This document shows positions 5,809 through 40,612 of a DNA stretch of 59,843 bases, piece after piece. Positions within the stretch are counted from its first letter, which is position 1, and every line of letters starts with the position of its first letter. The position numbers were made by a program, and so were the translations under genes. Location: the NCBI GenBank assembly GCA_030647415.1, contig JAUSKB010000016.1:1-59843 (forward strand), given 5' to 3'. The notes below the pieces were generated by a model, which did not search any database, was not told where the DNA came from, and saw nothing but the letters and a program-made list of their open reading frames with translations. Origin of the DNA: a bacterium. GTDB lineage: Bacteria; Patescibacteriota; Minisyncoccia; UBA6257; GWB1-50-10.

Positions 5809-6435
5809 TTAGTTGTCTGCAGTTCGTTGTGGGTCGTCGGTTGTTTGCTCGCCTCGCCCGCCTCGCCGAGACGTCGAGTCGAGGCTGGGCTGAAGCTCTG
5901 GCGAAGCGGGTTGTCGGTCACCCACCAACATCACCCGCGCGGGCCGGAGCACGTTGCCATGGAAGAGGAACCCAGCGCTCACCTCCTCCGCGACCGTCCC
6001 CGGCGGATCTCCGCCGGTTGGCGGACCCGCGGCCTCGCCGACCGCCTCATGCCGCGCGGGATCGAATGGAGTGCCGGGCGGCACCGTGAGGCGTTCGAGC
6101 CCCCGACGGGCGAGTACCGATTCGAGCTGGGACCGCACGAGCACCATCCCCTGCAATGCCCCCGCGTCATCCTTCACCGCCTGGACCCCGAGGTCAAAGC
6201 TGTCGACGACCGAGAGAAGGTCGCGCACCAGGTCCTCCGTCGAAAACTTCGCGAAGCGCTCGAGTCGCTCCGCCTCCTCCCGCTTGTGGTTTACGAGGTC
6301 GGCTTTTGCGCGCTTCCATCCGTCGAGGTACTCATCGCGCTCGGCGCGACACCGGGTGAGGTCGTCTGGCGTGACAGGCTCGCTACCGCCATTCGTAGCC
6401 GGTTCAGGATTCATATTTTGATCATCAGTAGGCAT
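5809..6435 (-). CDS. grpE: nucleotide exchange factor GrpE with an about 35-aa repeat-derived C-terminal tail
   Basis: GrpE core (...DLVRDLLSVVDSFDL...GNVLRPARVMLVG). It sits between hrcA and dnaK. The tail QPASPELQPSLDSTSRRGGRGEQTTDD... is encoded by repeat A1 plus spacer-like DNA. Confidence 0.9.
   Translation of the reverse strand: MPTDDQNMNPEPATNGGSEPVTPDDLTRCRAERDEYLDGWKRAKADLVNHKREEAERLERFAKFSTEDLVRDLLSVVDSFDLGVQAVKDDAGALQGMVLVRSQLESVLARRGLERLTVPPGTPFDPARHEAVGEAAGPPTGGDPPGTVAEEVSAGFLFHGNVLRPARVMLVGDRQPASPELQPSLDSTSRRGGRGEQTTDDPQRTADN
5848..5910. repeat. GC-rich palindromic element family A, truncated copy A1
   Basis: The core cctcgcccgcctcgccgagacgtcgagtcgaggctgggctg.agc...gcgaagcggg is shared with 16461-16519 and 40232-40290. 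Confidence 0.85.
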
Positions 6436-6521
6436 ATGTAATAGGTAATAAGTAACTGGTAAGAGGCAATTGAAAATTCAGTTTACGATATCGTTTCCTA
6501 TTACTGGTTACCAATTACTAA

Positions 6522-7223
6522 CTACCCTTCCTCTATCGACCGCTCGAGCGCACGGAAGAGCGAGAGGGATTTCCGGTAATCCATGCGTTTCGGCCCCACA
6601 GCGATAAGGAGGAATTCACCGGCGGGACCGGCGAGCCGGTCGGCGACCACCGCGAGGTGCCCGCTCGTCGTGAAGGGACTCTCACCGATGAACACCTGCG
6701 GCCACTCGTCTGTCGTTTCCCACCGGTCCCGGCACGCGGCAATTCGGTCCGGCAGTTCCTCAAAATCCCGGACGACCTCAAGGAGGTCGCGCTTCTCCGG
6801 AAGCTCGAGGTGCGTGAGAAGGCTCCCTAAGCCGCTCTCGTACATCGCGCCATGGTCCGTCTCGTAGCCAATGCCCAGGAGGTCGAGGTAGCCCGCGACC
6901 TCGTCCACAAACGACTGCGGGTTACCGCTCGAGAACTCGCCAAGAAACGCCGCGGCACGGCGCGGCACGGTGTCCGCGTCGCCCCGCGAAACGAGCTCGC
7001 GAACAAAGAACCGGTATGCTTTGTCGGTGGGCAATCGGCCGCCCGACGGGTGCATCTGGCGGAGGTAGCCACTGTCAGCAAGTTCCTGCAGCTCCCAGCG
7101 GATCATGGCCGGCTTGATGCCAAAATCGAACGACTCGTAGAGACGCTCGGATGTCACCGGAAGCCCTTCAGCGATGAATCGCGCAACCGATGAAAAAAGG
7201 ATGTTCCGTGTCCGGTCTGTCAT
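6522..7223 (-). CDS. hrcA: heat-inducible transcription repressor HrcA (short form)
   Basis: Winged-helix N-terminus (ILFSSVARFIAEGLPVTSERL...) and the motif GYLRQMHPSGGRLPTDKAYRFF. First gene of hrcA-grpE-dnaK-dnaJ, with a CIRCE-like site upstream. Confidence 0.8.
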   Translation of the reverse strand: MTDRTRNILFSSVARFIAEGLPVTSERLYESFDFGIKPAMIRWELQELADSGYLRQMHPSGGRLPTDKAYRFFVRELVSRGDADTVPRRAAAFLGEFSSGNPQSFVDEVAGYLDLLGIGYETDHGAMYESGLGSLLTHLELPEKRDLLEVVRDFEELPDRIAACRDRWETTDEWPQVFIGESPFTTSGHLAVVADRLAGPAGEFLLIAVGPKRMDYRKSLSLFRALERSIEEG

Positions 7224-7434: not shown

Positions 7435-8280
7435 CTACCACGAGGCGGGACAGGTGGCCGTCGAGGTGGTAATCGTTCCGGCATTTGAAACGCCGATGCG
7501 GTAACACGTGCCGTTCGGCGATGTGAGCACGATGCCGGCGGCCGAGGTCGTGACGCCGATATCCCCCGCCGAACGGAGTTTCGCGGTACCCGCGGGGGCC
7601 ACGGTGCCGATACCGACACCGCCGTCCGTGGAAATGGTGCCCGAGAGGAAGAGGTCCTGCCATTTGCGGAGTGCGGTGCCGATGCCGCGGTTCGGCCCGA
7701 TGTCGCTCACCGGAAGCAGATTGGAATCAAACGTCGCCGCAGACACTTTCGCGATGGCGCTTTGCCATGACCGCGCGACCTGGGCACCTTGTTTCCCTGA
7801 AGAGCTGACGAGTGTCATATTAACCTCCACGACCGCGGTGCCACCGGGGTTTTGAAATGGCGTCACGAGGAACTGACCAACGGTCACCCTATCATCCGTG
7901 AGCGCCACCGGCGTCCCGGCCGCCTGACCATCCGGAATCTCCTCCACATATATCGCCGTACCCTCGCTGTTTACATATATCTTCACGCGGTCATTCACGG
8001 TGGCGGTGGACATTCGGAGCACTAAGGTGCTTGTGGGAACGCCCAATATGCTTTCCACGGCGCTCGCCGCGCGGACATAGCGCTGAATCGTGTCCGCGAC
8101 GAAGGTAATCTCCCGGGTGACATCGTTCGCTGATGCCTGCCGGACCTGCGTGCGAGTGACCGTCGTCAAGATGGAAATTAGAAATACCGCAGCCATCGAG
8201 AAGATGGCGATGTAGACCAGGAGCTCGACTAGTGTGAACCCTGTTCGAGTTTTGCAAACATTCTGGTTCTCGTGAAACAT
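7435..8280 (-). CDS. type IV pilin-like protein (prepilin N-terminal cleavage/methylation motif)
   Basis: From the ATG at 8280 the protein reads MFHENQNVCKTRTGFTLVELLVYIAIFSMAAVFLI, the classic G/FTLxE plus hydrophobic helix. The tracked ORF extends to 8367, but that part looks like a repeat arm. Confidence 0.75.
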   Translation of the reverse strand: MFHENQNVCKTRTGFTLVELLVYIAIFSMAAVFLISILTTVTRTQVRQASANDVTREITFVADTIQRYVRAASAVESILGVPTSTLVLRMSTATVNDRVKIYVNSEGTAIYVEEIPDGQAAGTPVALTDDRVTVGQFLVTPFQNPGGTAVVEVNMTLVSSSGKQGAQVARSWQSAIAKVSAATFDSNLLPVSDIGPNRGIGTALRKWQDLFLSGTISTDGGVGIGTVAPAGTAKLRSAGDIGVTTSAAGIVLTSPNGTCYRIGVSNAGTITTSTATCPASW

Positions 8281-8402
8281 CGTTGTATCCGGGACCGCCT
8301 GTGTTCGAGGTTCGGATTGCACGAAAAACTCAAACAGGGTAAACCCAGTGCGCGGATTGAGACTCATGAATACGCTATAATCATACCATACTATTTCGCC
8401 CG

Positions 8403-13981: not shown

Positions 13982-13986
13982 GGAAT

Positions 13987-14085
13987 GATACCAATATGCT
14001 AATGGTACGAATGATGCGAATCATACGAATGGAAACGGATTAGTATTATTCGTATCATTCGCATGAATTCGTATATTAGCATCAC
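13987..14085. repeat. spacer-filling palindrome family C (cgaat words), copy C1
   Basis: Arms gataccaatatgctaatggtacgaatgatgcgaatcatacgaatgg / ttagtattattcgtatcattcgcatgaattcgtatattagcatc. It fills the gap between the serS start and the lysS stop. Confidence 0.85.
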
Positions 14086-14086
14086 A

Positions 14087-15529
14087 CTACGCATTCCGCA
14101 TCGGCGGGAAGAAGACCGTCTCGCGGATGGGTTTGTCGGCCATAACGGCGAAGAGCCGCTCGGAAAGCCCGAACCCGGCGGTCGGCGGCATACCGTACTC
14201 CAGGGCCTCGATGAAATCCTCGTCAATGCGTTGTGCCTCCTCGTCCCCCGCCTCGCGGAGCGCCATCTGCTCCTCGAACCGCTTCCGCTGTTCGTCCGGG
14301 TCGTTCAGCTCCGCCCAGCCGTTCCCTACCTCCGTACCTGCCGCGAGCACCTGGAACCGGAGTGCCCGGCCCGGCCGGTCGGGGTCCGCTTTTGCGAGCG
14401 GCGAGATGATGAGCGGGTGGCCGACGAGAAAGCATGGTTCTATAAGCGTCGGTCGGACGGTCTTTTTGTATATCAAATCGATGAGCCGCCCCGTTCCGAG
14501 CGTCGGGTCCACGGGGAGCGCAAGCTTCGCGGCGACCGCGGTAAGCGCCTCGCGGTCCGCAGTCAGGGGGTTGACGCCTGTCGCCGCGGCGAATGCGTCC
14601 ACATAGTCTACCTCACGCCACGTCCCGCCCCACTCGAGGATGACATCGCCGAACGTGGTGACGGTCGAACCCCAGGTCGCCTCGGCCACATGACAATAGA
14701 GGCCGGCGACGAACGCCATCATCTGCTGGTGGTCCCAGTAGGCGGCGTAGCACTCCATCTGCGTGTAGTCCTGTAGATGGTCGCGGTCGATCCCTTCATT
14801 CCGGAAGATGCGCCCGATCTCGAAGACCTTCTCGAACCCTCCCACGAGGAGTTTCTTAAGCGGCAGCTCGAGCGAGATGCGGAGAAAGAAGTCCTGGTCG
14901 AGGGCATTGTGGTGCGTCACGAATGGCGTCGCGTCCGCACCGCCGGGCACTTGCTCGAGCACCGAGGTCTCCACCTCAAGGAACCCCGCATGAACAAGCT
15001 CCTCGCGCATGGCGCGCCAGAACGAACTCTTCTTCCGGAACAGCTCCCGAACACCCGGGTCGGCGATAAGGTCGAGGTACCGCTTCCGGAGCCGGAGTTC
15101 CGTGTCGGAAAGTCCGTACCAGGTCGTCGGCACCGGCCGGAGGCTTTTTGCCGCAATCGTGGCCGCCACCGCCGCGATACTCGGCTCGCCTCGTTTCGTC
15201 GTGAGCGGGTTCCCGGTCACCGAGAGGAAGTCACCAACATCCACCGTCTCCACGAGGTGGGAAAACATTTCCGAGCCCAGCTCATTCGCGTCGAGAATCA
15301 CCTGAAGTTTTCCCGTACCGTCATCAAGGTCCGCGAAGATTATCTTGCCTTGGTCGCGCCAGGAAACGACGCGGCCGGCAACCGACCGCGCGTCATGCTG
15401 CCCGGCGAGGACCGCCGCGCGCGCCGCCGCGAGCGTCTCGGTGCGGGCGACGGTGGCAGGGTACGGATCGGCGCCCGCACGCACTCGTGCGAGCTTTCGA
15501 CGTCGTTCTTCTATGAGCTCGTCAAGCAT
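14087..15529 (-). CDS. lysS: lysyl-tRNA synthetase (class II)
   Basis: OB-fold N-domain (GRVVSWRDQGKIIFADLDDGTGKLQV) and class II core (FRNEGIDRDHLQDYTQMECY; GMPPTAGFGLSERL). Confidence 0.96.
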   Translation of the reverse strand: MLDELIEERRRKLARVRAGADPYPATVARTETLAAARAAVLAGQHDARSVAGRVVSWRDQGKIIFADLDDGTGKLQVILDANELGSEMFSHLVETVDVGDFLSVTGNPLTTKRGEPSIAAVAATIAAKSLRPVPTTWYGLSDTELRLRKRYLDLIADPGVRELFRKKSSFWRAMREELVHAGFLEVETSVLEQVPGGADATPFVTHHNALDQDFFLRISLELPLKKLLVGGFEKVFEIGRIFRNEGIDRDHLQDYTQMECYAAYWDHQQMMAFVAGLYCHVAEATWGSTVTTFGDVILEWGGTWREVDYVDAFAAATGVNPLTADREALTAVAAKLALPVDPTLGTGRLIDLIYKKTVRPTLIEPCFLVGHPLIISPLAKADPDRPGRALRFQVLAAGTEVGNGWAELNDPDEQRKRFEEQMALREAGDEEAQRIDEDFIEALEYGMPPTAGFGLSERLFAVMADKPIRETVFFPPMRNA

Positions 15530-15534
15530 TCTGA

Positions 15535-15608
15535 GATACTAATATACGAATTCATTCGAATGATACGAATAGTACTAATGCACCCCTATTCGTATCATAT
15601 ATTTTATC
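15535..15608. repeat. palindrome family C, copy C2 (right arm truncated)
   Basis: gatactaatatacgaattcattcgaatgatacgaatagtactaatg ... ctattcgtatcatat. It fills the gap between the lysS start and the greA stop. Confidence 0.8.
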
Positions 15609-16068
15609 AGGTGATGGACAGGATCCGGAGCGAGGCGGCGCCGCGCGGCGTCGTCACGTGCACCTCGTCCCCCACCCGCTTGCCGAGCAGGCTCCGCCCA
15701 ATCGGGGACTCGTTCGAAATCAATCCGCGGCCCGGCTGGGCCTCACTCGAGCCGGTGATCGTATAGGTCACCGTATCCCGGTCTCGTTCCGCCGTCACCG
15801 TGGAACCGATCTTCACCATGCCCGCAGCGCTCCCCGCCGACGTTATGATCGAGGAGGTGCGAAGAATGTCATCCAGCTGGCTGATACGCTGTTCCAAATT
15901 CGCCTGTTCGTCCCGCGCGGTCTGGTAATCGAAGTTTTCCGAAAGGTCCCCGAGGTCCTTCGCCTGCTTCAAGCGTTCAGCGATACGTCGCCGACCATCG
16001 GTTTTTAGCTCCCGGACCTCCTTTTCGATCTCCTCGAACCGTTCTTTGGTGAGATATGCGTGTTTCAT
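15607..16068 (-). CDS. greA: transcription elongation factor GreA
   Basis: 153 aa; LTKERFEEIEKEVRELK...DLSENFDYQTARDEQ coiled coil plus a C-terminal globular domain. Confidence 0.93.
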   Translation of the reverse strand: MKHAYLTKERFEEIEKEVRELKTDGRRRIAERLKQAKDLGDLSENFDYQTARDEQANLEQRISQLDDILRTSSIITSAGSAAGMVKIGSTVTAERDRDTVTYTITGSSEAQPGRGLISNESPIGRSLLGKRVGDEVHVTTPRGAASLRILSIT

Positions 16069-16080
16069 CGTGTGTAAAAA

Positions 16081-18036
16081 TCAGGTGCGCGGCTCGGTCG
16101 CCTGAGGCGACCGATCACGCATCCGGTGCTCATAGTACCACAGAAATACGTCGCGTGCTACCGGCGTGGTATTCATACTCCCTTCCCGTGAGTTTTCAAT
16201 GAGAATGAGCAGCGCGAGCTCCGGACGGTCCGACGGCGCGAATCCCACGAAGAACGCGTTGGTTCGCTGATTGTTCTCAATTTGTGCCGTCCCCGTCTTC
16301 CCGGCGACCGGGATCGGCAGGTCGTGGAGCGCGTACGAGGTGCCGTACGGCTGCCGAACGCCGTCCCGCATACCTTGCCGAACGACCTCGAGTGCCGGTC
16401 CCAATGTCGAACTGGAATCCTGTAGGATGATCGGCCCGCCTCGACTCGCTCGCTCGCTCGCCTCGCCCGCCTCGCCGAGACGTCGAGTCGAGGCTGGGCT
16501 GGAGCTCCGGCGAAGCGGGTCGGGCGAGGCGGGCCCGCCGACCGACTGGACGATCCGCGGCTGGTACCATATGCCGCCGTTCGCAACCGCGGCAATGTAG
16601 TTCAAGAGCGCGATGGGCGTGACCCCAAGGTCTCCCTGCCCGATTGAGACGTGATACGTGTCGCCGATGCGCCACGGGCGGTCGAAGGTGCGCTCGAACC
16701 ACTCCGGGTCCGGCAAAAAACCTTTCTCCTCCTCGTCAAGGTCGATGCCGGTCGGCTGGTCGAGACGGAACACCTGCCACCACCGCTTCAATGCCACGAT
16801 GCCCAACCCCCGCTGGGATTCGAATCCCCCGCCGACCTCGTAGAAGTAGACATTCGACGACCGCGCGAGCGCGCTCCGTACATCGACCCAACCGTGCGGT
16901 TTCCAGTCCGGGAATATGCTCGGCTGGTCCGGCACATACGGATTGGGAAGCTCAAGCTTTCCAGAAGAAAATATACTCGTGTCAGGGGTTACGATGCCAT
17001 CGGTCAGGGCTGCAGTCGCCATGAGCGGTTTGATGGTCGAGCCGGGACTGTACACACCGCTAACCGCGCGATTGAACAGGGGTTTCGTCGGGTCCGAGAG
17101 GTAGGAGGCGATCTTCCCGGGGTCGTACCCCGGCACGCTCGCGAGCGCGAGCACCTCGCCGTTCTGGGGATTGAGCGCAATCGCCGCGCCGCTCGTTCGG
17201 CCGAGCTCGGCGAGTCCCTGGCTCAACCGGTCAGAGAGGTACGTCTGAAAATCGGCATCGATGAATGTCCGAAGGTCCCCGCCGGCCGCCGAGTCCTGCG
17301 CCGCGCGTTCGCCGCGGACCTCGCCCCGAGCATCCCGGAGCGTCACCCGTTCGCCGTTCACCCCGCGGAGCACCGAGTCGTAGGAACCCTCGAGCCCTAC
17401 GCGACCGACCACATCGTTCACGATGAGCCGGTCATCAGCGTGGAGGTCGGCGTCGTTCGCAAGCCCCACATACCCGATGAGGTGCGAGAATGCGAGCGGG
17501 TTCGCGACTACACGGTTGAACGACGGGACCACGGAGACGCCGGGGAGCTTCGCGGATGCGACGGCGACCAACACATCCTGCGATGGATTCGTGGTAAGCA
17601 CCAGTTCGTCGGCCACGTTCCAGTTCTTTTTGGCGACGGTGTCGAACAGCGTCTGCTGGTCGCTTCCGAGGGCCTCACCAAGGCGCGTGAGTGTGGCCCG
17701 CCGCTCCTCCGGACTGGTCGGCAGATACCGAGGCGCAAGGATGATGTTGAACGACGGGACATTCTTCACGAGCGGCACGCCATACCGGTCATAGATGACG
17801 CCGCGCGGCGCAAGCTCCACGCGCGAATCGCTCATATTCGCGAGCGCACGCGCCGCAAACGCCTCATGTTCGACGAGTGAAAAATATCCGACTCGAATAC
17901 CGACGCCGACAACGACGAATATGCCGACAAGAAGCAGTCGCCGAAACAGGCGGTCCGTCACCGGAACCTCAAGGAGGTCGTCCTCGACAACTCGGTCGGT
18001 CAGAATATCTTCGAGGTTCAGCGGTTCTCGGGACAT
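16081..18036 (-). CDS. mrdA: penicillin-binding protein 2 (elongasome transpeptidase) carrying an in-frame repeat insert
   Basis: N-terminal TM helix, a PBP dimerisation region, and transpeptidase motifs (SPGSTIKP, SSN, KTGTA). Downstream of mreBCD. The insert ...GGPASPDPLRRSSSPASTRRLGEAGEASERASRGG... is element A2. Confidence 0.9.
   Translation of the reverse strand: MSREPLNLEDILTDRVVEDDLLEVPVTDRLFRRLLLVGIFVVVGVGIRVGYFSLVEHEAFAARALANMSDSRVELAPRGVIYDRYGVPLVKNVPSFNIILAPRYLPTSPEERRATLTRLGEALGSDQQTLFDTVAKKNWNVADELVLTTNPSQDVLVAVASAKLPGVSVVPSFNRVVANPLAFSHLIGYVGLANDADLHADDRLIVNDVVGRVGLEGSYDSVLRGVNGERVTLRDARGEVRGERAAQDSAAGGDLRTFIDADFQTYLSDRLSQGLAELGRTSGAAIALNPQNGEVLALASVPGYDPGKIASYLSDPTKPLFNRAVSGVYSPGSTIKPLMATAALTDGIVTPDTSIFSSGKLELPNPYVPDQPSIFPDWKPHGWVDVRSALARSSNVYFYEVGGGFESQRGLGIVALKRWWQVFRLDQPTGIDLDEEEKGFLPDPEWFERTFDRPWRIGDTYHVSIGQGDLGVTPIALLNYIAAVANGGIWYQPRIVQSVGGPASPDPLRRSSSPASTRRLGEAGEASERASRGGPIILQDSSSTLGPALEVVRQGMRDGVRQPYGTSYALHDLPIPVAGKTGTAQIENNQRTNAFFVGFAPSDRPELALLILIENSREGSMNTTPVARDVFLWYYEHRMRDRSPQATEPRT
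16433..16535. repeat. GC-rich palindromic element family A, full-length copy A2 (inside mrdA)
   Basis: 11-bp perfect termini ggcccgcctcg / cgaggcgggcc. The core is identical to A1/A3 (cctcgcccgcctcgccgagacgtcgagtcgaggctgggctg). Confidence 0.88.
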
Positions 18037-18058: not shown

Positions 18059-18169
18059 GTTTACCCTGTTAGAGATTTACATGCACGCCTTTCAAAATAT
18101 ACCTGTTTGTACTAATACCAGCAGGTATACATCCAAAATGATTCTCTGTAAATCTCTAACAGGGTGAAC
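18059..18169. repeat. 107-bp-class TIR element family F4, copy 1
   Basis: Arms gtttaccctgttagagatttaca / tgtaaatctctaacagggtgaac (1 mismatch). It lies 23 nt upstream of the mrdA ATG. Confidence 0.88.
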
Positions 18170-18237
18170 CCAAACAATTTCCCCCACAAAAGTGGTGCGG
18201 GGTGCACCTCGAGCGCTCGAGCACCGCAATCCGCTCC

Positions 18238-20504: not shown

Positions 20505-20653
20505 AGAGTAATCGCGAATAATGCTAATTATTGCAAATAATGCGAATGAATGCGCACTCCATTCGCATCAGTATACCTGCTATTCGCATTATTCGCGATT
20601 ACTCTTTTCATTCGAATTATTACCTTTGCTATTCGAATTATTCGCGATTACTC
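20505..20653. repeat. 149-bp complex palindrome family C-prime, copy 1
   Basis: Left arm gagtaatcgcgaataatgc. Two alternative right arms: attcgcattattcgcgattactc and attcgaattattcgcgattactc. It overlaps the last codons of proS. Confidence 0.85.
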
Positions 20654-21897
20654 CCGAGGAGCGCGGGCAGGTCCTTCAGCGCGACGAGCTCAGGCTTCCC
20701 GTTCTTGCGCTCTTTTACCTCCACCTTGTTGTGCGCGAGGGTCTTTTCGGAAACGACGAGGCGTGCGGGGATACCGATGAGGTCGGCGTCCGTGAACTTT
20801 TCCCCTGCCGACATTTCGTGCCGGTCGTCGAAGAGGACCTCCATGCCTTTTTTCGTCAGCGCCTCATACACCTTCTCGGCGTAGGCACGAACCTTTTCAT
20901 CCTCACCGAGCACAACGAGGTGCGCGGCGGCGGGCGCGACACTCCGGGGCCAGACGATGCCCCTATCGTCGTGGTGCACCTCTACGATGGTCCCCACGAG
21001 CCGGTCTACCCCGATACCGTAGGATGCCATGATAACGGGGTGGAGCGCACCCGCCGCATCGCGGTAGCGGAGATTCAGTGGCTCCGAGAACCGCGTGCCG
21101 AGCTTGAAAATATTCCCCACCTCGCTCGTCGCGACGTGCTCCACGACGCCGCCGGGGCATTTGGGGCAGGTGGCGCCGGACTTGAGCTTCGATATCTCCT
21201 TGTTCTCCGCATAGCCGCAGAGCCGGCAAAGCACCGTCTCGTCCTCGCCGGCAGACGTTTCCACCATGAACTCATGCGAGTGCTCCTTAGAGAAGTCGCC
21301 GCCCGATGCCTCCGTGACGAACGCGGTGAGCTCCATGCGCTTGAAAACCTTGAGGTAGGCGTGCTTCACCACTTCGTAAAACTCCGCAAGCGATTGCTCA
21401 TCCGCGTGGAAGCTGTAGAGGTCCTTCATGGAAAACTCCCGCCCGCGCATGAGGCCGGACTTCGCGCGCGCCTCGCTCCGGAACTTCGTCTGTATCTGAT
21501 AGGTCGAAATCGGCAGGTCGGCGTAGGAGAAAATGATATGCGTGCCGATCGCGGCGACAATCTCCTCGTGCGTGGGACCCAGGCCGTACTCCTTCCCTTG
21601 CAGGTCCCTAAACTGGTACATCACGCTCTTCATGCTCTCCCATCGGCCGGTCGCGTCCCATGCGGCGCGGGGATGGAGGGCAGGCATGAGGAGCTCCGAG
21701 GCGCCAAGCGCGTTCATCTCCTCGCGGATGATGCCGATGACCTTCTCGCGGACGCGAAATCCCAAGGGCAGGAAGGTGTGGACGCCCGCCATAAGCTTCG
21801 AGATGAACCCACCCCGCGCAAGGAGCTGCGCGTTCACCGAGACCTCATCCTTCGGGGCCTCTTTGAGCGTGCGGGAGAATAATTTTGACTGCCTCAT
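20638..21897 (-). CDS. proS: prolyl-tRNA synthetase, short form without INS editing domain
   Basis: MRQSKLFSRTLKEAPKDEVSVNAQLLARGGF..., motif 2 FRSEARAKSGLMRGREFSMKDLYSF, motif 3 SYGIGVDRL. Only 419 aa. Confidence 0.92.
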   Translation of the reverse strand: MRQSKLFSRTLKEAPKDEVSVNAQLLARGGFISKLMAGVHTFLPLGFRVREKVIGIIREEMNALGASELLMPALHPRAAWDATGRWESMKSVMYQFRDLQGKEYGLGPTHEEIVAAIGTHIIFSYADLPISTYQIQTKFRSEARAKSGLMRGREFSMKDLYSFHADEQSLAEFYEVVKHAYLKVFKRMELTAFVTEASGGDFSKEHSHEFMVETSAGEDETVLCRLCGYAENKEISKLKSGATCPKCPGGVVEHVATSEVGNIFKLGTRFSEPLNLRYRDAAGALHPVIMASYGIGVDRLVGTIVEVHHDDRGIVWPRSVAPAAAHLVVLGEDEKVRAYAEKVYEALTKKGMEVLFDDRHEMSAGEKFTDADLIGIPARLVVSEKTLAHNKVEVKERKNGKPELVALKDLPALLGSNRE

Positions 21898-22046
21898 GGA
21901 GTAATCGCGAATAATGCTAATTTAACTCAAATAATGCGAATAAATGCGCTCTATTCGCATTATTACCTCTACAATTCGCATTATTAGCGATTACTCTCTT
22001 CATTCGCATTATTATATCTGCAATTCGCATTATTAGCGATTACTCC
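21898..22046. repeat. 149-bp complex palindrome family C-prime, copy 2
   Basis: Same organisation and orientation as 20505-20653, and roughly 80 percent identical by eye. It abuts the proS ATG. Confidence 0.85.
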
Positions 22047-25419: not shown

Positions 25420-26481
25420 CTACAGCAGTTTCCCCACGTCCTGCACGGTGACGATGGCCATGAGGAGAAGGAGGGCGGCGAACCCGACGCCGTTTATGGC
25501 TATCTGTACTCGGCGCGGGATGGGGCGCCGAATGAGCTTTTCAACAAGCAACACGAGGACCCGGCCGCCGTCCAAGGCCGGAAACGGAATCAGGTTCAGG
25601 ATGACCAGGTTCAGCGAGATGAGGGCGAGGAGCTGGAAAAAGTAGACCGCGCCGAGCTCGCCCGTGCGGACGGCAAAGCTCACAATACCGACCGGCCCGC
25701 TCACCTTCTGGAGCACGCCGGGCTCCGTAAAAACATTTGTGAGGAGGTACCAGAAGCTCGATGCCACCTCCCCGAGCGTCCGGAAGGTCTGGAAGAAGGC
25801 CTCGGCAATCGCCTGGTGAATCGGGAGGGCCGGAAACCCGATGGAGGTGAGCGCAATACCGAGTGAGCCCTCGCCCGGCGGCGGGGTCGCCCGCCCGACG
25901 AGCGTGACGGTGCGCGTCCCGCCCGCACCGGTGAGTTCAAGCGAGAGCGTCTTCCCCGCCGCGGACCTGGCGAGCGCGACGAATGCGTCGGCGTCTATTG
26001 GGTCCGCGAGCGCCGTCTCTCCCCATGTGGCGCGGGCGATGACATCACCCTGCACGATGCGTGCTTCAGCCGCGGGCGAACCGGACGAGACGCCACCCAC
26101 GATGAGATGCTCCGGCGCGCCGGCGGCGAAGACACCCGTCAAAATTACAAATCCGAAGAGGACGTTCATCGCTACACCCGCAAGGAGAATACCGATCCGC
26201 TTCCAGAGTGGTTTCGCTCCAAAGCGCCGTTCCGGCTCATCGCCCACCTCCTCTTCCGACTTCCCAGCCGGCTGTTCCCCGTGGATGCGCACGAACCCGC
26301 CAAACGGCAGGGCGTTCACGCTGTATGTCGTCTCGCCCACCGTCCGGCTCCAGAGCCGCGGCGGGAACCCGATACCAAACTCGTCCACGCGCACTCCGGC
26401 CGCCTTTGCCGCCAAAAAATGGCCCAGCTCATGGACCAGGATGACGAGCGACAAACCGATGATGGATAAAAAAATAATCAT
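25420..26481 (-). CDS. rseP: RIP metalloprotease RseP (site-2 protease, M50)
   Basis: HELGHF zinc motif in the first TM helix, a PDZ-like middle region, and the C-terminal motif LNLIPFPALDGG. Confidence 0.92.
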   Translation of the reverse strand: MIIFLSIIGLSLVILVHELGHFLAAKAAGVRVDEFGIGFPPRLWSRTVGETTYSVNALPFGGFVRIHGEQPAGKSEEEVGDEPERRFGAKPLWKRIGILLAGVAMNVLFGFVILTGVFAAGAPEHLIVGGVSSGSPAAEARIVQGDVIARATWGETALADPIDADAFVALARSAAGKTLSLELTGAGGTRTVTLVGRATPPPGEGSLGIALTSIGFPALPIHQAIAEAFFQTFRTLGEVASSFWYLLTNVFTEPGVLQKVSGPVGIVSFAVRTGELGAVYFFQLLALISLNLVILNLIPFPALDGGRVLVLLVEKLIRRPIPRRVQIAINGVGFAALLLLMAIVTVQDVGKLL

Positions 26482-26482
26482 A

Positions 26483-26572
26483 ATTCCTAATTTCTAATTA
26501 CCAATTTCTAATTACCAATCACAAACCAGAAATCCCCATTGGATATTAGAAATTGGAAATTAGTAATTTTAT
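26483..26572. repeat. spacer-filling imperfect palindrome (ctaat/attag words)
   Basis: ctaatttctaattaccaatttctaattaccaat ... attggatattagaaattggaaattag. The arms are colinear. It fills the gap between the rseP start and the frr stop. Confidence 0.75.
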
Positions 26573-27152: not shown

Positions 27153-27190
27153 CAAGGCGAAACCTCAGAATTCCCCGAGGTTTCGCCTTG
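27153..27190. repeat. hairpin family B, copy B2 (contains the holB stop codon in its loop)
   Basis: caaggcgaaacctc-agaattcccc-gaggtttcgccttg, a 14-bp perfect stem. Confidence 0.88.
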
Positions 27191-28019
27191 GGAGCCGCCC
27201 CAAACGCTCCCGGATTGCCCGCTCCTGAAGCACCGGATTCACATTGAACCGGCGGACCAGCTCGAGCCGTTCCGCAAGCCACGCAAGTCTGCCCGGCTGG
27301 CCCGCCCGACCGGACGACTGCGGTCGTTCGGGCAGGTACCCCCGAAATCCGTTCGCGTGCGCCTCGACGAGCATCCGCTCGATCTCGGCGCCAGGATCTC
27401 GAGGCGAAACCTCGGAATCTCCTAGAGGTTTCGCCTCCGGCTTCGACAGCTCGAGCGCACAACCGATGCTTCCGAACGACCGCGCGGCGATGCGGGAAGC
27501 TGCCGCGGGTGAACAGCTACGATGCTGAAGTAAAAATCGCTCCACATGAGCCGCAGGTAGCCGCGGCACGTACACGACGGAAAGCCGTGAACGGAGCGGC
27601 GGAGTGAGTAGGTCTGCCTGGCTCGTCACGACAAGGAGCAGCGCATGTGGCGGTGGTTCCTCGACAATCTTCAAGAGCGCGCCCTGCGCCTCGGGGGTGA
27701 GCGCCTCGGCACCGTCGATGACCACAGTCCGGCGCGGAGACCGAAACGGCGTCTGCCAGAGGAACCTACGGATGTCACGGATAGCATCGATACCAATCGT
27801 CCTATTTTCTCCTGGTGCGGTCGTTGTGATATCCATGAGCGCTGCCGCACCGAACTCGAAGCTACCACACTCAAGGTACGCGGCAAACGATGCCGCGAAT
27901 GTTGCCTTCCCGATACCGCGGTCGCCGACAAAACAGTAGGCGTGCGTTAGCGTGCCCTCCCGCGAGAGGCGGGCGAATATCGCAGTAAGTTTATCGTACC
28001 CTACTAGAGTGGATGACAT
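27165..28019 (-). CDS. holB: DNA polymerase III delta-prime subunit (clamp-loader AAA+)
   Basis: HAYCFVGDRGIGKATFA P-loop, VVIDGAEALTPEAQGALLKIVEEPP. The C-terminus runs through two B hairpins. Confidence 0.8.
   Translation of the reverse strand: MSSTLVGYDKLTAIFARLSREGTLTHAYCFVGDRGIGKATFAASFAAYLECGSFEFGAAALMDITTTAPGENRTIGIDAIRDIRRFLWQTPFRSPRRTVVIDGAEALTPEAQGALLKIVEEPPPHALLLVVTSQADLLTPPLRSRLSVVYVPRLPAAHVERFLLQHRSCSPAAASRIAARSFGSIGCALELSKPEAKPLGDSEVSPRDPGAEIERMLVEAHANGFRGYLPERPQSSGRAGQPGRLAWLAERLELVRRFNVNPVLQERAIRERLGRLPRRNLGEF
27400..27436. repeat. hairpin family B, copy B3 (in-frame inside holB)
   Basis: gaggcgaaacctc...gaggtttcgcctc; translated as EAKPLGDSEVSPR. Confidence 0.85.
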
Positions 28020-29161: not shown

Positions 29162-29318
29162 GAGTGGAGGAGAGTAATCAGTAATTGGTAAAAGGTAATT
29201 GGAGGCTCAAAACCAACATACGCGAGTTCCTATTACCTATTACTTGCTACTTATTACCTGTTACCAAGTACCTATTTCTATCCACCCCACTTTACCGCCA
29301 TAGCGCCGTTTTCGCAAG

Positions 29319-31837: not shown

Positions 31838-31940
31838 CACCGCCCTCGCCGCGCACGTCCGTTCGTTTGCGGTTCGCGACACCACCCTCTACCTGCTCTC
31901 GACCGACGGTACCTTGAGTTCCCTGGATCTCTCGCCGTAG
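31838..31940 (+). pseudogene. 103-bp direct repeat, copy 2 (orphaned 3' end of 29698..31125)
   Basis: Near-identical over the first approximately 80 bp, diverging in the last approximately 20 bp. It ends in its own in-frame stop (tag at 31938-31940). Confidence 0.85.
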
Positions 31941-32229: not shown

Positions 32230-33311
32230 GGGTTAAGGAAACTTTCGTGTGGGTAAGGACAGGCAAAAGCGCTTGATGTCGTCGAGCTCTTTTGCCTGTT
32301 TTGACAGCAAGATAGACATACGCAAGTCTATCTTGCATGAAACACCCATACTGCCCAGGCTGTTCGCGTCGCATGGAGCGCCACGGAAAAACAGCGGCGG
32401 GTACCGAACGGTACCGCTGTCCAAAGTGTCGGAAGACCACTGTCATCCACCGAACGGACACCCGGAAGCGGCATCTCCGCGACCACTTTGTCGACTGGCT
32501 CACCGGCACGGACTCAAAGCAAAAGATCGCCGAGAAGCTCGGCGTTTCCCGTCAGGCATTATCTAAGGAGTTCCAGCAGTTCTTCGGCGTTGGCCTCGAG
32601 CCGCCGATTCCCACCGAACTCACGGCGAGGATCCTCATCGTGGACGGCACGTACATTGAGGGGCGGGCACTCTGCGCTCTGGTCGCCGTGACGGAGCGGG
32701 ACCGGATCTTTTGGCGGTTCGCCACAGAAGAGCGCTACGGCACCTGGCTCGCCTTCCTCGAGTCGTTCCCGCCACCGAAGGTTGTTGTGGCCGACGGTCA
32801 GAAAGGCATGCAGCGCTTCGTGAAACATCACTGGCCTCAAACCGCCTTCCAGCGCTGTCACTTCCATCTGGTCATGCTCGTCACCCACTATCTCACCCGG
32901 AATCCCTCGGAAGAGGTGGGGCGAGACATTCTCGACCTCGTGCATCGTCTTAAGTATGTGAAAGCGCCTGCAGAGCGCGACCGGTGGCTCCTACTCCACC
33001 GAATCTGGGAAAAACGGTACGAAAAGGTTTTCGCCGAACGAACCGCAGGAGGAGTATACGCACATCGGAAGCTACGAAGCGTACGGTCGGTGCTCCGCCG
33101 CGCCACACCCCAGCTCTTCACGTATTTGGACTACCCAGGGTGCCCAAACACGACCAACCTCGTTGAGGGATGGGTGAATACCGCGATTGCGGAAGGCATC
33201 GGCAGGCACCGGGGACTCACCCTGGAAAAGAAGAAAACGCTCGTGTCGGTTATCCTCTCGAATTTGAAGCGGCCGACGAGAGAAAAACCCACACGAAAGT
33301 TTCCTTAACCC
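32230..33311 (+). mobile_element. IS1-family insertion sequence (single-ORF type), 1082 bp
   Basis: Perfect 25-bp TIRs gggttaaggaaactttcgtgtgggt (32230-32254 / 33287-33311). 8-bp TSD gcgcaacg (32222-32229 / 33312-33319). Confidence 0.9.
32337..33308 (+). CDS. IS1-family transposase
   Basis: The N-terminal zinc ribbon CPGCSRRMERHGKTAAGTERYRCPKCRKT mirrors IS1 InsA (CPSC..NGKSTAGHQRYLCSHCRKT). DDE-like region ILIVDGTY...VVADGQKG...TNLVEGW. Confidence 0.75.
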   Translation: MKHPYCPGCSRRMERHGKTAAGTERYRCPKCRKTTVIHRTDTRKRHLRDHFVDWLTGTDSKQKIAEKLGVSRQALSKEFQQFFGVGLEPPIPTELTARILIVDGTYIEGRALCALVAVTERDRIFWRFATEERYGTWLAFLESFPPPKVVVADGQKGMQRFVKHHWPQTAFQRCHFHLVMLVTHYLTRNPSEEVGRDILDLVHRLKYVKAPAERDRWLLLHRIWEKRYEKVFAERTAGGVYAHRKLRSVRSVLRRATPQLFTYLDYPGCPNTTNLVEGWVNTAIAEGIGRHRGLTLEKKKTLVSVILSNLKRPTREKPTRKFP

Positions 33312-36319: not shown

Positions 36320-36321
36320 AT

Positions 36322-36513: not shown

Positions 36514-36514
36514 C

Positions 36515-38161: not shown

Positions 38162-38163
38162 AA

Positions 38164-38898: not shown

Positions 38899-40611
38899 CT
38901 ACTCCACCACGACCGTGATTTTCCGGGAATCGTTCGGCGCCCGGCGGACCCAGAACGGCCACAGATGCACGGTTGCCTTCGAGATGCCGGGAATGTCTGA
39001 AAGCATTGAGTTGAGCTTCGTTTCATCCTTGCCCAGTATGAGCGTGGTAAGTGCAGTGCTATCGAGCACATACCGGAGCGCTACCGTGCCGGATGCCGCG
39101 ACCGTGAGTGTACCACGATCGAAGTCGACTGTTGGCACCTCGAACGACGCATCGATCGAGTCCACGGTGAGCGACGAGGACTGCTGCGCCGCCGCACGCA
39201 CCGCCCGTGCGCCAACCGCCTCCTTGAACATGCGGTCATCAAAGACAATCTGCTTGAGCGACGCCTCACCGAACAACCGAAACGTACCGGAATCGTCCCC
39301 CGACGAGCGGAGGCGGCGCAGAACGACGAACCGCGTTGCGTCACGGAGCTCCGTAAAATGCTCATTTGCGGTGAGGAGCACCAGCTCGCTCACGAGCGCA
39401 TCACGGAGCGACGCATCGAGCGACTGCACCGCCCTCGCCTCCTCTTCCTTCGTGGGCGCTGCCCGTTCGCCCATGAAACCGCCCCGGAGTGCGTCCGGCG
39501 CCGCCGCGGTGAACGTATCATATTTCGGCGTACCCTGGAATCCCGGAATCCGCCATCCGTCGCTCGCAGGGACATTATGCGCCTCCCCGGCCGCATCAGC
39601 CGTCACCGAAACAGTCGTCGTGGACGATTGGATGGTTCCCCCAGAAACCCGTGCACCGGGAATGACCGATCGCTGGTTTAAGCGGAACACCGTGCCCTCC
39701 GGCGAGACAAACCGGGTCGTTGCGACCAGCACTTGCGGTTCCGAACTGAACGCGTTCGTCACCACGAGTGTTCCCGACGCCTTCGTGGCCACACGTTCCG
39801 TCCCTGCCGTCGGGAAGGTGAGCTCCAACGTGCGCCGTGCGTCGAACGACTGTGCAGGCAGCACGATGCGCGTGCCGGTACTCTCGGGCGCAGTGACACG
39901 GACCGAGGCGTCGATCAATTCCATGAACGGGATGGGAATCCGTGCGGCGCGAATCGTGACGGTCGCGCGCGGCACCACCGCGGTCGCCACCCACCAGCCT
40001 CCCCCGAGTACCGCGGCGGCGCATACGGAAATCACCAGGACGCGGAACCAGTGCGGTGACCGCTTGGGACGCTCCGGCTCCGGCTCTGGAACCGCGGCAG
40101 GTTGTGTGTCCTTCGTCGAACGTTCGCTGTTTTCAATTTCGAGTTTTGACTCTTCGCGCTCAACTTCTTGACGTTCGATATCAGACGTTAGACGATCTGC
40201 GGCAGATTCCACCGCTTGCGCATTCAATCCACCTCGCCCGCCTCGCCGAGACGTCGAGTCGAGGCTGGGCTGGAGCCGCGACGAAGCGGACCCGACGAGT
40301 GGGCGAGTCGAGGCGGGCCGTGCGATGATATCGGAAACAGCCCGCTCCTTCGAGTGGAAGAATGCGTTGCGGGATGGGATCCCGGCGAGCGACGCGAGTT
40401 CGAGGATATGGTCGTCCGCCGACTCGATCATGAGCTCCTTCCCCGCGTGCTCGGCTTCCCGGCGCAAGAGGTGGAAATTCTGCACCGAAACGCCAATGTC
40501 GGCTCCGGACGGGATGGTAAGCATAATCCTCGTGGAATCCTCGGTAAGGATCTTTTCCACGATTGCCGGGAGGCTATCCCCGCGCGCAATGAGTATTTTT
40601 TTCTCGGTCAT
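38899..40611 (-). CDS. hypothetical bitopic envelope protein carrying an in-frame family A element
   Basis: 570 aa: a cytoplasmic N-domain, one TM helix (VLVISVCAAAVLGGGWWV), and a large beta-rich C-domain. The insert ...SASSRLQPSLDSTSRRGGRGG... is element A3. Confidence 0.65.
   Translation of the reverse strand: MTEKKILIARGDSLPAIVEKILTEDSTRIMLTIPSGADIGVSVQNFHLLRREAEHAGKELMIESADDHILELASLAGIPSRNAFFHSKERAVSDIIARPASTRPLVGSASSRLQPSLDSTSRRGGRGGLNAQAVESAADRLTSDIERQEVEREESKLEIENSERSTKDTQPAAVPEPEPERPKRSPHWFRVLVISVCAAAVLGGGWWVATAVVPRATVTIRAARIPIPFMELIDASVRVTAPESTGTRIVLPAQSFDARRTLELTFPTAGTERVATKASGTLVVTNAFSSEPQVLVATTRFVSPEGTVFRLNQRSVIPGARVSGGTIQSSTTTVSVTADAAGEAHNVPASDGWRIPGFQGTPKYDTFTAAAPDALRGGFMGERAAPTKEEEARAVQSLDASLRDALVSELVLLTANEHFTELRDATRFVVLRRLRSSGDDSGTFRLFGEASLKQIVFDDRMFKEAVGARAVRAAAQQSSSLTVDSIDASFEVPTVDFDRGTLTVAASGTVALRYVLDSTALTTLILGKDETKLNSMLSDIPGISKATVHLWPFWVRRAPNDSRKITVVVE
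40232..40319. repeat. GC-rich palindromic element family A, copy A3
   Basis: Core identical to A1/A2. The right end gggcgagtcgaggcgggcc is the reverse complement of the A2 left end. Confidence 0.88.
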
Positions 40612-40612
40612 T

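What the first reader, a model, noticed from the sequence alone, without database searches (positions are those of the whole stretch)
16433..16535. Full-length GC-rich palindromic element (family A) inserted in frame in the transpeptidase domain of PBP2
A 103-bp element carries perfect 11-bp termini ggcccgcctcg / cgaggcgggcc. Its approximately 59-bp core is nearly identical to copies at 5852-5910 and 40232-40290.

It encodes GPASPDPLRRSSSPASTRRLGEAGEASERASRGG between ...NGGIWYQPRIVQSVG and PIILQDSSSTLG... of an otherwise canonical, intact 651-aa PBP2.

In grpE and the 570-aa gene the same DNA is read in a different frame (LQPSLDSTSRRGGRG). It is therefore a nucleotide-level element and not a protein domain, analogous to Rickettsia palindromic elements.
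Basis: partly seen in the sequence, partly recalled or inferred. Interest (0 to 1): 0.85.

Follow-up and report, generated by a model that had tools for sequence, protein, structure and literature searches.

The report
In-frame GC-rich hairpin repeat in PBP2
A short GC-rich hairpin-forming DNA repeat sits in frame in a surface loop of an essential cell-wall enzyme of a tiny groundwater bacterium, and its 38-base heart is also found, letter for letter, inside a gene of an unrelated AT-rich bacterium (a Melainabacteria), so it is a real Rickettsia-like "selfish DNA in genes" case in new hosts.

Summary
Window 16433-16535 is a 103-nt, 79% GC segment with perfect 11-nt inverted termini. It lies in frame in an intact 651-aa PBP2. 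A 41-nt block is identical at 5852-5892 (GrpE tail) and 40232-40272 (a 570-aa ORF), where it is read in a different frame.

PBP2 orthologues (typically 617-622 aa) lack the insert. It falls in a variable loop that is the only internal low-confidence segment of an otherwise confident structure model.

The 103 nt are not one "full-length" unit. They are a nest of about 31-36-nt hairpin modules. The innermost 33-nt module also occurs in a different GC-rich organism, probably another Patescibacterium (NYN protein tail). It also occurs inside an SDR gene of a 36% GC Melainabacteria MAG, nested in an older 36-nt hairpin insert. About 70 SDR orthologues show the empty site, with no target duplication. 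Three separate SDR clades are occupied at the same codon.

A second family of such inserts is present in the window (holB, comEC) and in the same PBP2 loop of another lineage.

Best reading: a new REP/RPE-like family of translated intragenic palindromic elements. The mobilising enzyme is unknown. The cross-phylum identity and same-site recurrence are the unusual parts.

The parts
16433..16535 (-). Composite GC-rich palindromic insert in PBP2 (aa 501-535), given in host-mRNA sense. It is 103 nt and 79% GC.
   Evidence: It is absent from 50+ orthologues.
16466..16498 (-). 33-nt core hairpin module. In mRNA sense it reads CCCAGCCTCGACTCGACGTCTCGGCGAGGCGGG (aa 513-524).
   Evidence: Identical at 5857-5889 and 40237-40269 and in L001, L003 and L020. 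It folds alone at -17.3 kcal/mol, z -2.3. It equals the extra 33 nt of L001 relative to the short inserts L010/L011.
16461..16501 (-). 41-nt block identical in all three window copies.
16499..16519 (-). 5' arm (mRNA sense CCCGCTTCGCCGGAGCTCCAG) of the second-layer hairpin that encloses the core. Its partner arm is at 16456-16465.
   Evidence: With the core removed, the 31-nt sequence folds as a hairpin at -16.9 kcal/mol, z -2.8. This layer varies among copies. L005 retains it without the core.
16456..16465 (-). 3' arm (mRNA sense CGAGGCGAGC) of the second-layer hairpin. It is followed by a (GAGC)n run at 16450-16455.
16433..16449 (+). Terminal module GGCCCGCCTCGACTCGC.
   Evidence: There are exactly two copies in the window, here and inverted at 40303-40319. 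L005 has a remnant, GCGAGTCGAGGCGGACC, at the equivalent place.
16525..16535 (-). Right 11-nt terminus, cgaggcgggcc. It is the inverted first 11 nt of the terminal module.
16081..18036 (-). Host gene: PBP2/MrdA-type class B transpeptidase, 651 aa, intact.
   Evidence: and the Pfam domains. PDB sequence search gives MrdA at E 6e-68. The AlphaFold model has mean pLDDT 86 and TM-score (normalised to the target) up to 0.86 to PBP2 structures.
5842..5913 (-). Copy in the C-terminal tail of GrpE (core 5857-5889), read as PASPELQPSLDSTSRRGGRGE.
   Evidence: nhmmer E 2e-22 and the ORF. GrpE homology to solved structures ends near residue 172.
5809..6435 (-). Host gene grpE (208 aa).
   Evidence: (PF01025).
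40227..40319 (-). Copy in the linker of the 570-aa ORF (core 40237-40269; terminal module 40303-40319), read as SASSRLQPSLDSTSRRGGRGG.
38899..40611 (-). Host gene: 570-aa ORF of unknown function with no Pfam hit.

Best explanation
**What it is**

The segment is selfish, non-autonomous repeat DNA of the REP/RPE type: small GC-rich hairpin modules of about 31-36 nt. They have landed, one inside another, in a permissive surface loop of PBP2. They are simply transcribed and translated as about 23-34 extra, mostly disordered, residues.

**Shown**
- The same DNA occurs in five unrelated genes in two reading frames.
- It has no stop codon in any frame.
- All insertions sit in loops, linkers or C-terminal tails of intact genes.
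- Orthologues provide empty sites.
- The module lengths measured against empty or short-insert sites (33, 36 and 69 nt) are multiples of three.
- The innermost 33-nt module is sequence-identical in three different organisms of two phyla, while the layers around it have diverged. It is therefore the most recently spread layer, or the most constrained one.
- It sits after ...G and before CGAG inside an older GC-rich hairpin in both phyla.

**Inferred**
- The modules are copied to new sites in trans, by a hairpin- or sequence-recognising enzyme or by recombination of taken-up DNA.
- There is no target duplication. There is either strong site preference or seamless loss.
- Selection then keeps only stop-free insertions of a multiple of three nucleotides at positions the protein tolerates.
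- A single-strand HUH/Y1 (IS200/IS605/RAYT-like) "peel and paste" route fits the lack of duplication, the hairpins, the same-site recurrence and the uniform strand in the window. No such enzyme was seen.
For: - **Repeat is real:**
- **Different frames and hosts:**
- **No stops in six frames:**
- **Host organism and orthologue lengths:** the host is a Patescibacterium, and orthologues are 617-622 aa against 651 aa here.
- **Position in PBP2:** the insert falls in a variable loop. That loop is the only internal segment with pLDDT below 50 (residues 503-523) in a model with mean pLDDT 86. The model matches solved PBP2 structures.
- **GrpE and NYN copies:** both lie beyond the conserved fold.
- **SDR gene, gain or loss:**
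  - About 70 orthologues show the empty site TRLTQVRKP|GEDFG.
  - L001 has +69 nt. L010 and L011 have +33 and +36 nt at the same codon.
  - No duplication longer than 1 nt is seen at the junctions.
  - Occupied alleles fall in three clades, each with an empty sister.
- **Hairpins:** each module folds alone, with z -2.3 to -2.8. One compensatory pair change (C-G to U-A) separates the outer hairpins of L001 and L011.
- **Older layer:** L005 keeps the older layer without the core.
- **Independent assemblies:**
- **Second family:** another family with the same habit occurs in holB, in comEC and in the same PBP2 loop of L006.
- **Precedent:** translated intragenic REP/RPE elements are described in PMC3733652 and PMC10969869.
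Against: - Only five independent copies of this family were found in all accessible collections. Genome-wide copy number, intergenic copies and orientation statistics are therefore unknown.
- No transposase related to the element is in the window. The only one is an IS256/Mutator-like gene with unrelated 25-nt inverted repeats.
- Whole-element folding energies are only modestly better than shuffles (z -1.7 to -2.7).
- Translation of the insert is inferred from frame and length, not observed.
- Perfect conservation of the core could reflect function rather than youth.
- In L011 three synonymous AT-to-GC changes lie directly 3' of the insert. That looks more like a recombination or conversion tract than cut-and-paste.
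Confidence: 0.75

Rival explanations
1. The copies spread by homologous or short-homology recombination of DNA taken up from the environment, not by a transposase. An occupied allele or a GC-rich hairpin fragment replaces the resident sequence, using flanking similarity.
For: - The window encodes ComEC.
- The organisms carrying the NYN copy and the Melainabacteria copy come from the same type of aquifer datasets.
- The core always lands inside an older GC-rich hairpin that shares GGCGAG-type motifs.
- L011 shows three synonymous AT-to-GC changes right next to the insert, like a co-conversion tract.
- There is no target duplication.
- The same codon is occupied in three SDR clades whose flanks are highly conserved.
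Against: - Random uptake would not repeatedly deliver the same 33-41 nt.
- The host genes of the five copies are unrelated, so there is no flanking homology between loci.
- The three SDR inserts differ in sequence and length.
Confidence: 0.25
2. The conserved 41-nt block is kept by selection because it does something as DNA or RNA. Possibilities include a protein binding site, an mRNA stabiliser or processing site, or a translation pause. The protein insertion would be a side effect.
For: - There are zero substitutions in the core across five copies and two phyla, while the adjacent layer differs by 2-5 of about 20 nt.
- All five copies have the same orientation relative to the host mRNA.
- The GrpE copy lies just upstream of dnaK.
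- REPs are known to act as RNA elements (PMC3733652).
Against: - The host genes have nothing in common.
- Orthologues work without it.
- There is no Rfam match.
- Five of five in one orientation is only p about 0.06, and it is confounded by gene strand in the window.
- The second family occurs in both orientations relative to its hosts.
Confidence: 0.15
3. The segment is removed after transcription or skipped by the ribosome, like an intron, an intein or a translational bypass (byp or T4 gene 60-type) element. PBP2 would then lack these residues.
For: GC-rich hairpins inside coding sequence of an AT-rich genome (L001) resemble the mitochondrial byp elements recalled from the literature. The hairpins are stable.
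Against: - The Melainabacteria SDR inserts measured against empty or short-insert sites (33, 36 and 69 nt) are multiples of three.
- All copies have no stops in any frame and keep the host frame.
- No matched take-off and landing codons, and no stop after the take-off site, are visible in L001.
- At 34 aa it is far too short for an intein.
- There is no Rfam intron match.
Confidence: 0.04
4. It is a low-complexity loop that evolved in place, or an assembly or sequencing artefact.
For: The loop is variable in length among orthologues. All known copies come from metagenome assemblies.
Against: - The same 41 nt occur in unrelated genes in different frames.
- Independent assemblies reproduce it in the window organism (L012), in the NYN locus (L003, L020-L022) and in the Melainabacteria locus (L001, L002, L004).
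- All copies preserve the ORFs.
Confidence: 0.02

Closest known systems
Rickettsia palindromic elements (RPE-1 to RPE-10; Ogata et al. 2000, 2002, as summarised in PMC10969869)
   Same: - Repeated palindromic DNA is inserted in frame in unrelated housekeeping genes and translated.
- Insertions sit at positions compatible with the protein fold.
- Several families coexist in one genome.
- No transposase is known.
   Different: - The host is a Patescibacterium, plus a Melainabacteria, not Rickettsia.
- The elements are GC-rich, not AT-rich.
- They are built from nested modules of about 31-36 nt, rather than units of about 100-150 bp.
- The core is shared across phyla.
- Sequence relatedness to RPE consensus sequences was not tested.
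Intragenic REPs, GTAG- or CGTC-tagged (Di Nocera et al. 2013, PMC3733652)
   Same: - These are 20-40-bp GC-rich stem-loops.
- Singles, dimers and groups found inside genes encode about 20-30 aa.
- About 10% lie at ORF ends.
- CGTC REPs have no dedicated transposase.
   Different: - There is no GTAG.
- CGTC is present only in the centre (GACGTC) of the core, not as an end tag.
- In the window 3 of 3 copies are intragenic and none is intergenic, whereas REPs are mostly extragenic.
- The modules are nested in one another rather than arrayed side by side.
Bacterial MITEs that fuse with ORFs (Correia, ERIC, Nezha, QMITE; PMC10969869)
   Same: They are short, non-autonomous and hairpin-forming, and are sometimes read through in frame.
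   Different: - MITEs have family-wide terminal inverted repeats and target-site duplications that match a parent IS.
- Here the inverted termini occur in one copy only.
- The SDR empty and occupied sites show no duplication.
- The only IS in the window is unrelated.
Mitochondrial GC clusters and byp elements of yeasts (recalled from memory, not checked here)
   Same: Small GC-rich hairpins invade an AT-rich genome, including coding sequence, as in the Melainabacteria SDR gene.
   Different: - Those are organellar.
- byps break the reading frame and are bypassed by the ribosome.
- The present inserts keep the frame, so nothing requires bypassing.

Membership tests
Rickettsia palindromic elements (RPE) | Repeated nucleotide element present in several unrelated genes | tested here: met
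   There are three copies in the window and two more in other genomes.
Rickettsia palindromic elements (RPE) | Inserted in frame, host ORF intact, element open in the frames used | tested here: met
   There are no stops in six frames.
Rickettsia palindromic elements (RPE) | Insertion at a surface or permissive position of the host protein | tested here: met
   The PBP2 insert is in a variable loop with pLDDT below 50 only there. The GrpE and NYN copies are in tails beyond the fold. The SDR copy is in the lid region.
Rickettsia palindromic elements (RPE) | Units of about 100-150 bp with sequence similarity to an RPE family consensus | not tested
   No RPE consensus sequence was available for comparison. 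The unit size here is 31-36 nt per module.
Rickettsia palindromic elements (RPE) | Occurrence in the genus Rickettsia | tested here: not met
   The PBP2 relatives are Patescibacteria/Paceibacteria. One copy is in a Melainabacteria MAG.
REP / REPIN (RAYT-mobilised) and CGTC-tagged REPs | GC-rich imperfect palindrome of 20-40 bp | tested here: met
   The 33-nt core, the 31-nt second layer and the 33/36-nt Melainabacteria modules each fold as hairpins.
REP / REPIN (RAYT-mobilised) and CGTC-tagged REPs | Conserved GTAG or CGTC tetranucleotide at one end of the stem-loop | tested here: inconclusive
   There is no GTAG. CGTC occurs in the central GACGTC of the core, not at an end. It could be two head-to-head units.
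REP / REPIN (RAYT-mobilised) and CGTC-tagged REPs | Mostly extragenic, high copy number | tested here: not met
   All 3 window copies are intragenic, and a profile scan finds no others in 60 kb. Genome-wide copy number is not testable here.
REP / REPIN (RAYT-mobilised) and CGTC-tagged REPs | Cognate Y1/HUH transposase (RAYT) gene flanked by the repeats | tested here: inconclusive
   None was found among about 50 window ORFs scanned against Pfam. The rest of the genome was not available.
MITE | Family-wide terminal inverted repeats | tested here: not met
   The 11-nt termini are paired only in the PBP2 copy. The ORF570 copy has one terminal module and the GrpE and L003 copies have none.
MITE | Target-site duplication | tested here: not met
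   The empty sites L009 and L013 compared with the occupied sites L001, L010 and L011 show at most 1 nt of ambiguity. The window copies could not be tested because no close empty alleles exist.
MITE | Parent IS with matching ends | tested here: not met
   The only IS in the window (32230-33311, IS256/Mutator-like) has unrelated 25-nt inverted repeats.
Intein / intron / translational bypass element | Splicing domain, ribozyme fold, or matched take-off and landing codons with an in-frame stop | tested here: not met
   The insert is 34 aa, has no Rfam hit, has a length that is a multiple of three where it could be measured against empty sites, and has no stops.

The most novel reading that the evidence does not exclude
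The 33-nt core is an actively moving, codon-length mini-element. It homes with high site specificity into existing GC-rich hairpins inside coding sequence, building protein loops layer by layer. It has recently crossed between Patescibacteria and Melainabacteria living in the same aquifer. This would be a kind of inter-phylum, site-specific, translated mobile DNA not described for REPs or RPEs. The recurrent occupation of one SDR codon in three clades, and of one PBP2 loop by two families, would then reflect targeting and not only tolerance.
Probability: 0.3. Interest if true: 0.8.

Novelty: new member of a known kind. Interest (0 to 1): 0.62.

Why it matters
Translated selfish palindromes have been treated largely as a Rickettsia curiosity, with scattered intragenic REPs reported elsewhere. 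This finding adds four things.

- **New hosts.** The habit exists in the Candidate Phyla Radiation, in at least two families, and inside essential genes such as PBP2, GrpE, HolB and ComEC.
- **Clean insertion sites.** The Melainabacteria SDR gene gives unusually clear empty and occupied sites, because a GC-rich insert stands out in AT-rich DNA. These show no target duplication, lengths that are multiples of three, and nesting.
- **Movement between phyla.** An identical 38-nt core in two phyla from the same kind of habitat points to recent movement of very small DNA between distant bacteria.
- **Practical consequence.** Such inserts inflate and distort loops in metagenome-derived proteins and break assemblies, as with L012. 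Annotators and structure predictors should expect them.

Tried and rejected
**Searches for more copies**
- A concatenated six-frame peptide query against the 5.8-billion-protein index returned only the window's own GrpE. HMMER bias correction suppresses these low-complexity matches.
- A two-sequence profile of the frame-A peptide was searched against 1.84 billion representatives. It returned ORF570 itself and one spurious repeat protein, P0243.
- Viral contigs gave no hit for the 22-mer. The half-core and terminal-module patterns gave only chance hits in GC-rich phages.
- Plasmids gave nothing. Phages gave one weak, irrelevant hit.
- The window has no Rfam match.
- An nhmmer profile of the five copies found no diverged copies in the window or in 20 fetched loci.
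- No stand-alone second-layer hairpin was found in the window.

**Ideas considered and dropped**
- attC site: no R'/R'' GTT/AAC boxes.
- CRISPR repeat: single copies inside ORFs.
- Intein: too short.
- MITE of the resident IS256-like element: the ends are unrelated.

**Could not be done**
- Empty-site comparison for P0185, because no DNA was available for it.
Full report
**1. The observation**

Window 16433-16535 reads ggcccgcctcg...cgaggcgggcc. The termini are perfect reverse complements. The segment is 103 nt and 79% GC, in a 58% GC window.

It lies inside a minus-strand ORF, 16081-18036, of 651 aa. A 40-mer from its centre occurs exactly three times in the window, at 5853, 16462 and 40233, all on the + strand. 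None is expected in shuffled sequence. The block identical in all three copies is 41 nt.

The other two copies lie in minus-strand ORFs. One is GrpE (5809-6435). The other is a 570-aa ORF with no Pfam family (38899-40611). In both the DNA is read as LQPSLDSTSRRGGRG, a different frame from the SSSPASTRRLGEAGE of PBP2. None of the six frames has a stop codon.

An independent Logan assembly, L012, is 100% identical to window 15546-16485. It stops in the exact middle of the core, which is what a repeat does to an assembler.

**2. The host gene**

The ORF has the PBP_dimer and Transpeptidase domains, and its relatives are PBP2 of Patescibacteria (Paceibacteria, Jorgensenbacteria and similar). Typical orthologues are 617-622 aa. 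The catalytic motifs STIK, SSN and KTG are present. Gene order mreB-mreC-x-pbp2-greA-lysS is the same as in relatives.

In an alignment of 40 to 57 orthologues the extra residues fall in one variable loop, between GGxxYxPR[IV] and EVRxGMRDGV. An AlphaFold model built on 57 sequences has mean pLDDT 86 and pTM 0.81. Its only internal stretch below pLDDT 50 is residues 503-523, inside the insert. The model superposes on solved PBP2/MrdA structures with TM-score (normalised to the target) up to 0.86 (sequence match).

The gene therefore looks functional, and the insert is a surface loop. Typical loops have 9-16 residues between PR[IV] and the next conserved P, and this one has 39. The net gain is about 23-25 residues, less than the 34 covered by the 103 nt.

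**3. Copies elsewhere**

One scan of 185,579 species genomes with a 22-mer gave a single hit, L001, in a Candidatus Melainabacteria MAG from the Rifle aquifer. That contig is 36.7% GC, and the hit is its only GC-rich island. It lies in frame in an SDR/FabG-like gene and reads PASTRRLGEAGE. Two other IMG assemblies carry the identical locus, and the protein is in two NCBI MAGs.

The metagenome scan added L003, a 63% GC contig. There the element forms the C-terminal tail of an NYN-domain protein (...RQSSSPASTRRLGEAGETR). The same locus is present at 99.9% identity in three further assemblies of groundwater datasets (L020-L022). That organism shares no other detectable DNA similarity with the window.

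There are therefore five independent insertions in three organisms of two phyla, and 38 nt are identical in all of them. All five have the same orientation relative to the host mRNA. Three use one frame and two use another. Nothing was found in viral contigs, plasmids or phages.

**4. Anatomy: nested hairpin modules, not one 103-nt unit**

*SDR gene (Melainabacteria).* The SDR gene gives clean empty sites.
- About 70 orthologues, up to 95% identical outside the insert, read TRLTQVRKP|GEDFGIPEEQ.
- At the DNA level the empty allele L009 is ...AGAAAACCAG|GTGAAGATTTTGG.
- L001 has 69 extra nt at that point.
- L010 has 33 nt there (CCGCCCTTGGCGAGCCTCGCCCAAATGGGCGGG), and L011 has 36 nt.
- L001 equals an L011-like 36-nt insert plus 33 nt, CCCAGCCTCGACTCGACGTCTCGGCGAGGCGGG. 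This is precisely the core shared with the window.
- No target duplication longer than 1 nt is seen, and all lengths are multiples of three.

*Window copies.* In the copies from the two GC-rich (Patescibacteria-like) organisms — the three window copies and L003 — the core sits inside another palindrome (CCCGCTTCGCCGGAGCTCCAG^CGAGGCGAGC). This layer differs by 2-5 nt among copies, while the core does not vary.

*L005.* The closest PBP2 orthologue (L005, 74% identity) has a loop 15 residues shorter. When the core is deleted in silico, the window sequence aligns to it (GGAGCTCCAG^CGAGGCGAGC...GCGAGTCGAGGCGGGCC versus GGAGCGCCGCCGGCGCGGGCG...GCGAGTCGAGGCGGACC). L005 thus carries an older layer without the core.

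*Folding.* Each module folds on its own:

| Module | Free energy (kcal/mol) | z |
|---|---|---|
| 33-nt core | -17.3 | -2.3 |
| Second layer without core | -16.9 | -2.8 |
| Melainabacteria 33-nt module | -19.3 | -2.8 |
| Melainabacteria 36-nt module | -18.3 | -2.6 |

One stem pair of the Melainabacteria outer hairpin changes from C-G to U-A between L001 and L011.

*Termini.* The 17-nt terminal module GGCCCGCCTCGACTCGC occurs only twice in the window. One is at the left end of the PBP2 insert. The other is inverted, at the right of the ORF570 copy. The GrpE and L003 copies have none.

**5. Same-site recurrence and a second family**

On a distance tree of 78 SDR orthologues the occupied alleles fall in three separate clades. 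Each has an empty close relative: P0122 versus P0123-127, P0151/P0152 versus P0185, and P0160 versus P0186. That means either at least three gains at one codon or many seamless losses. In L011 the three codons after the insert carry synonymous AT-to-GC changes relative to its empty sister L013, which looks like a conversion tract.

In PBP2, the same loop carries unrelated GC-rich inserts in P0038 (L006) and P0086 (L007/L008). The L006 insert belongs to a second family (GCCCGACCGGACG...GGTCGTTCGGGCRGG). That family also sits in frame in two window genes: the holB-like ORF (27289-27336) and comEC (about 52609-52668). Relative to their host genes, these copies are in both orientations.

A third strong double hairpin, 97 nt at -70 kcal/mol, lies in frame in ORF 40774-42063.

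The window thus shows several families with one habit, as Rickettsia does.

**6. Mechanism**

*Shown.* This is repeat DNA, not a protein domain. It is tolerated only where proteins allow it. The lengths measured against empty sites are multiples of three and stop-free. There is no target duplication. The modules are nested. One layer is very recent or very constrained and is shared between phyla.

*Inferred.* The modules are mobilised in trans. A single-strand, hairpin-recognising Y1/HUH transposase (IS200/IS605/RAYT type) would explain four things: the seamless empty sites, the target preference (the core always follows ...G and precedes CGAG), the hairpins, and the uniform strand of all five family A and B copies in a window with monotonic GC skew.

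Against this, no such gene is among about 50 window ORFs. The only transposase is IS256/Mutator-like, with unrelated 25-nt inverted repeats.

Recombination of taken-up DNA is a serious alternative. ComEC is present, L011 has a conversion-like tract, and the core-sharing organisms come from the same aquifer type.

A function for the invariant core cannot be excluded. Removal from the mRNA, or ribosomal bypassing, is unnecessary given the frame-preserving lengths, and no signals for either are seen.

**7. Comparison with what is known**

The closest known systems are the Rickettsia palindromic elements and the intragenic GTAG/CGTC REPs catalogued by Di Nocera et al. (PMC3733652; review PMC10969869). 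Those papers already describe 20-40-bp GC-rich stem-loops, singly or in groups, encoding 20-30 residues inside genes. CGTC REPs and RPEs have no known transposase.

The present family works like these but fails or leaves open several membership features:
- It is not in Rickettsia.
- It has no terminal GTAG or CGTC tag. CGTC is central, within GACGTC.
- It is not predominantly extragenic in the window.
- It has no MITE-type terminal repeats or target duplication.

My literature searches found no report of such elements in Patescibacteria or Melainabacteria. That is an absence within the held library only.

**8. Verdict**

The finding is a real feature, and its main point was correctly interpreted. 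The unit should be re-defined as nested hairpin modules of about 33 nt.

It is a new member of a known kind (translated intragenic palindromic repeats). Three aspects would surprise a specialist: an identical core in two phyla, module-in-module nesting with lengths that are multiples of three, and repeated occupation of the same codon or loop.

Limits: only five copies were accessible, no enzyme was found, and translation is inferred.

Noticed in passing
window 27289-27336 and about 52609-52668; L006 11505-11570: A second family of GC-rich palindromic in-frame inserts (GCCCGACCGGACG ... GGTCGTTCGGGCRGG). It occurs in the holB-like ORF (27165-28019, aa 228-244), in comEC (51509-53098, aa about 135-154), and in the PBP2 loop of a Jorgensenbacteria relative at the same loop as the finding. 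Its orientation relative to the host gene differs between the window and L006.
   Followed up: partly
window 40885-40981: A 97-nt double hairpin (RNAfold -70 kcal/mol, about 79% GC) lies in frame in ORF 40774-42063 (aa 361-393; no Pfam hit). It may be a third family of the same kind.
   Followed up: no
L007 11085-11150 (P0086) and L005 about 1715-1765 (P0002): Other Patescibacteria PBP2 genes carry unrelated or decayed GC-rich inserts in the very same loop. The loop is a hot spot, or an especially tolerant site.
   Followed up: partly
L011 about 790-830 versus L013: Directly 3' of the 36-nt insert in the Melainabacteria SDR gene, GTGAAGAT has become GCGAGGAC. These are three synonymous AT-to-GC changes and resemble a co-conversion tract.
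   Followed up: partly
window 18060-18171, 40611-40759, 8235-8346, 38383-38494, 42075-42185, 36292-36323: An AT-rich intergenic inverted repeat, TTTACCCTGTTAGAGTTTTACA / TGTAAAACTCTAACAGGGTAAA, flanks many gene starts. These include the regions just upstream of PBP2 and of the 570-aa ORF. It may be a promoter, operator or terminator palindrome family.
   Followed up: no
window 13984-14088, 15532-15598, 38162-38275, 43616-43720; also 6437-6531, 26480-26570, 29171-29284, 38812-38892, 45700-45734, 54497-54602, 57881-57925: Two further AT-rich intergenic repeat families in an otherwise GC-rich genome. One is made of ATACGAATGATACGAAT-type units. The other is made of TTACC/ATTAC units with 7/14-nt periodicity.
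   Followed up: no
window 32230-33311: An IS256/Mutator-family transposase ORF (32337-33308, +) is bounded by perfect 25-nt inverted repeats, GGGTTAAGGAAACTTTCGTGTGGGT. It is unrelated to the GC-rich elements.
   Followed up: partly
window 31023-31123 / 31838-31938; 36453-36518 / 37249-37314; 20554-20654 / 21946-22046: Three pairs of local direct repeats, 94%, 95% and 82% identical, separated by 0.8-1.4 kb. The first pair is GC-rich and may be a duplicated coding segment.
   Followed up: no
window 42251-43609 and 51509-53098: A VirD4/TrwB-type coupling protein and ComEC are encoded in the window. This is DNA transfer and uptake machinery that could bear on how small DNA moves between organisms.
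   Followed up: no
whole window: No Rfam family reaches its gathering score anywhere in 59.8 kb. Cumulative GC skew falls monotonically, and most genes are on the minus strand.
   Followed up: partly
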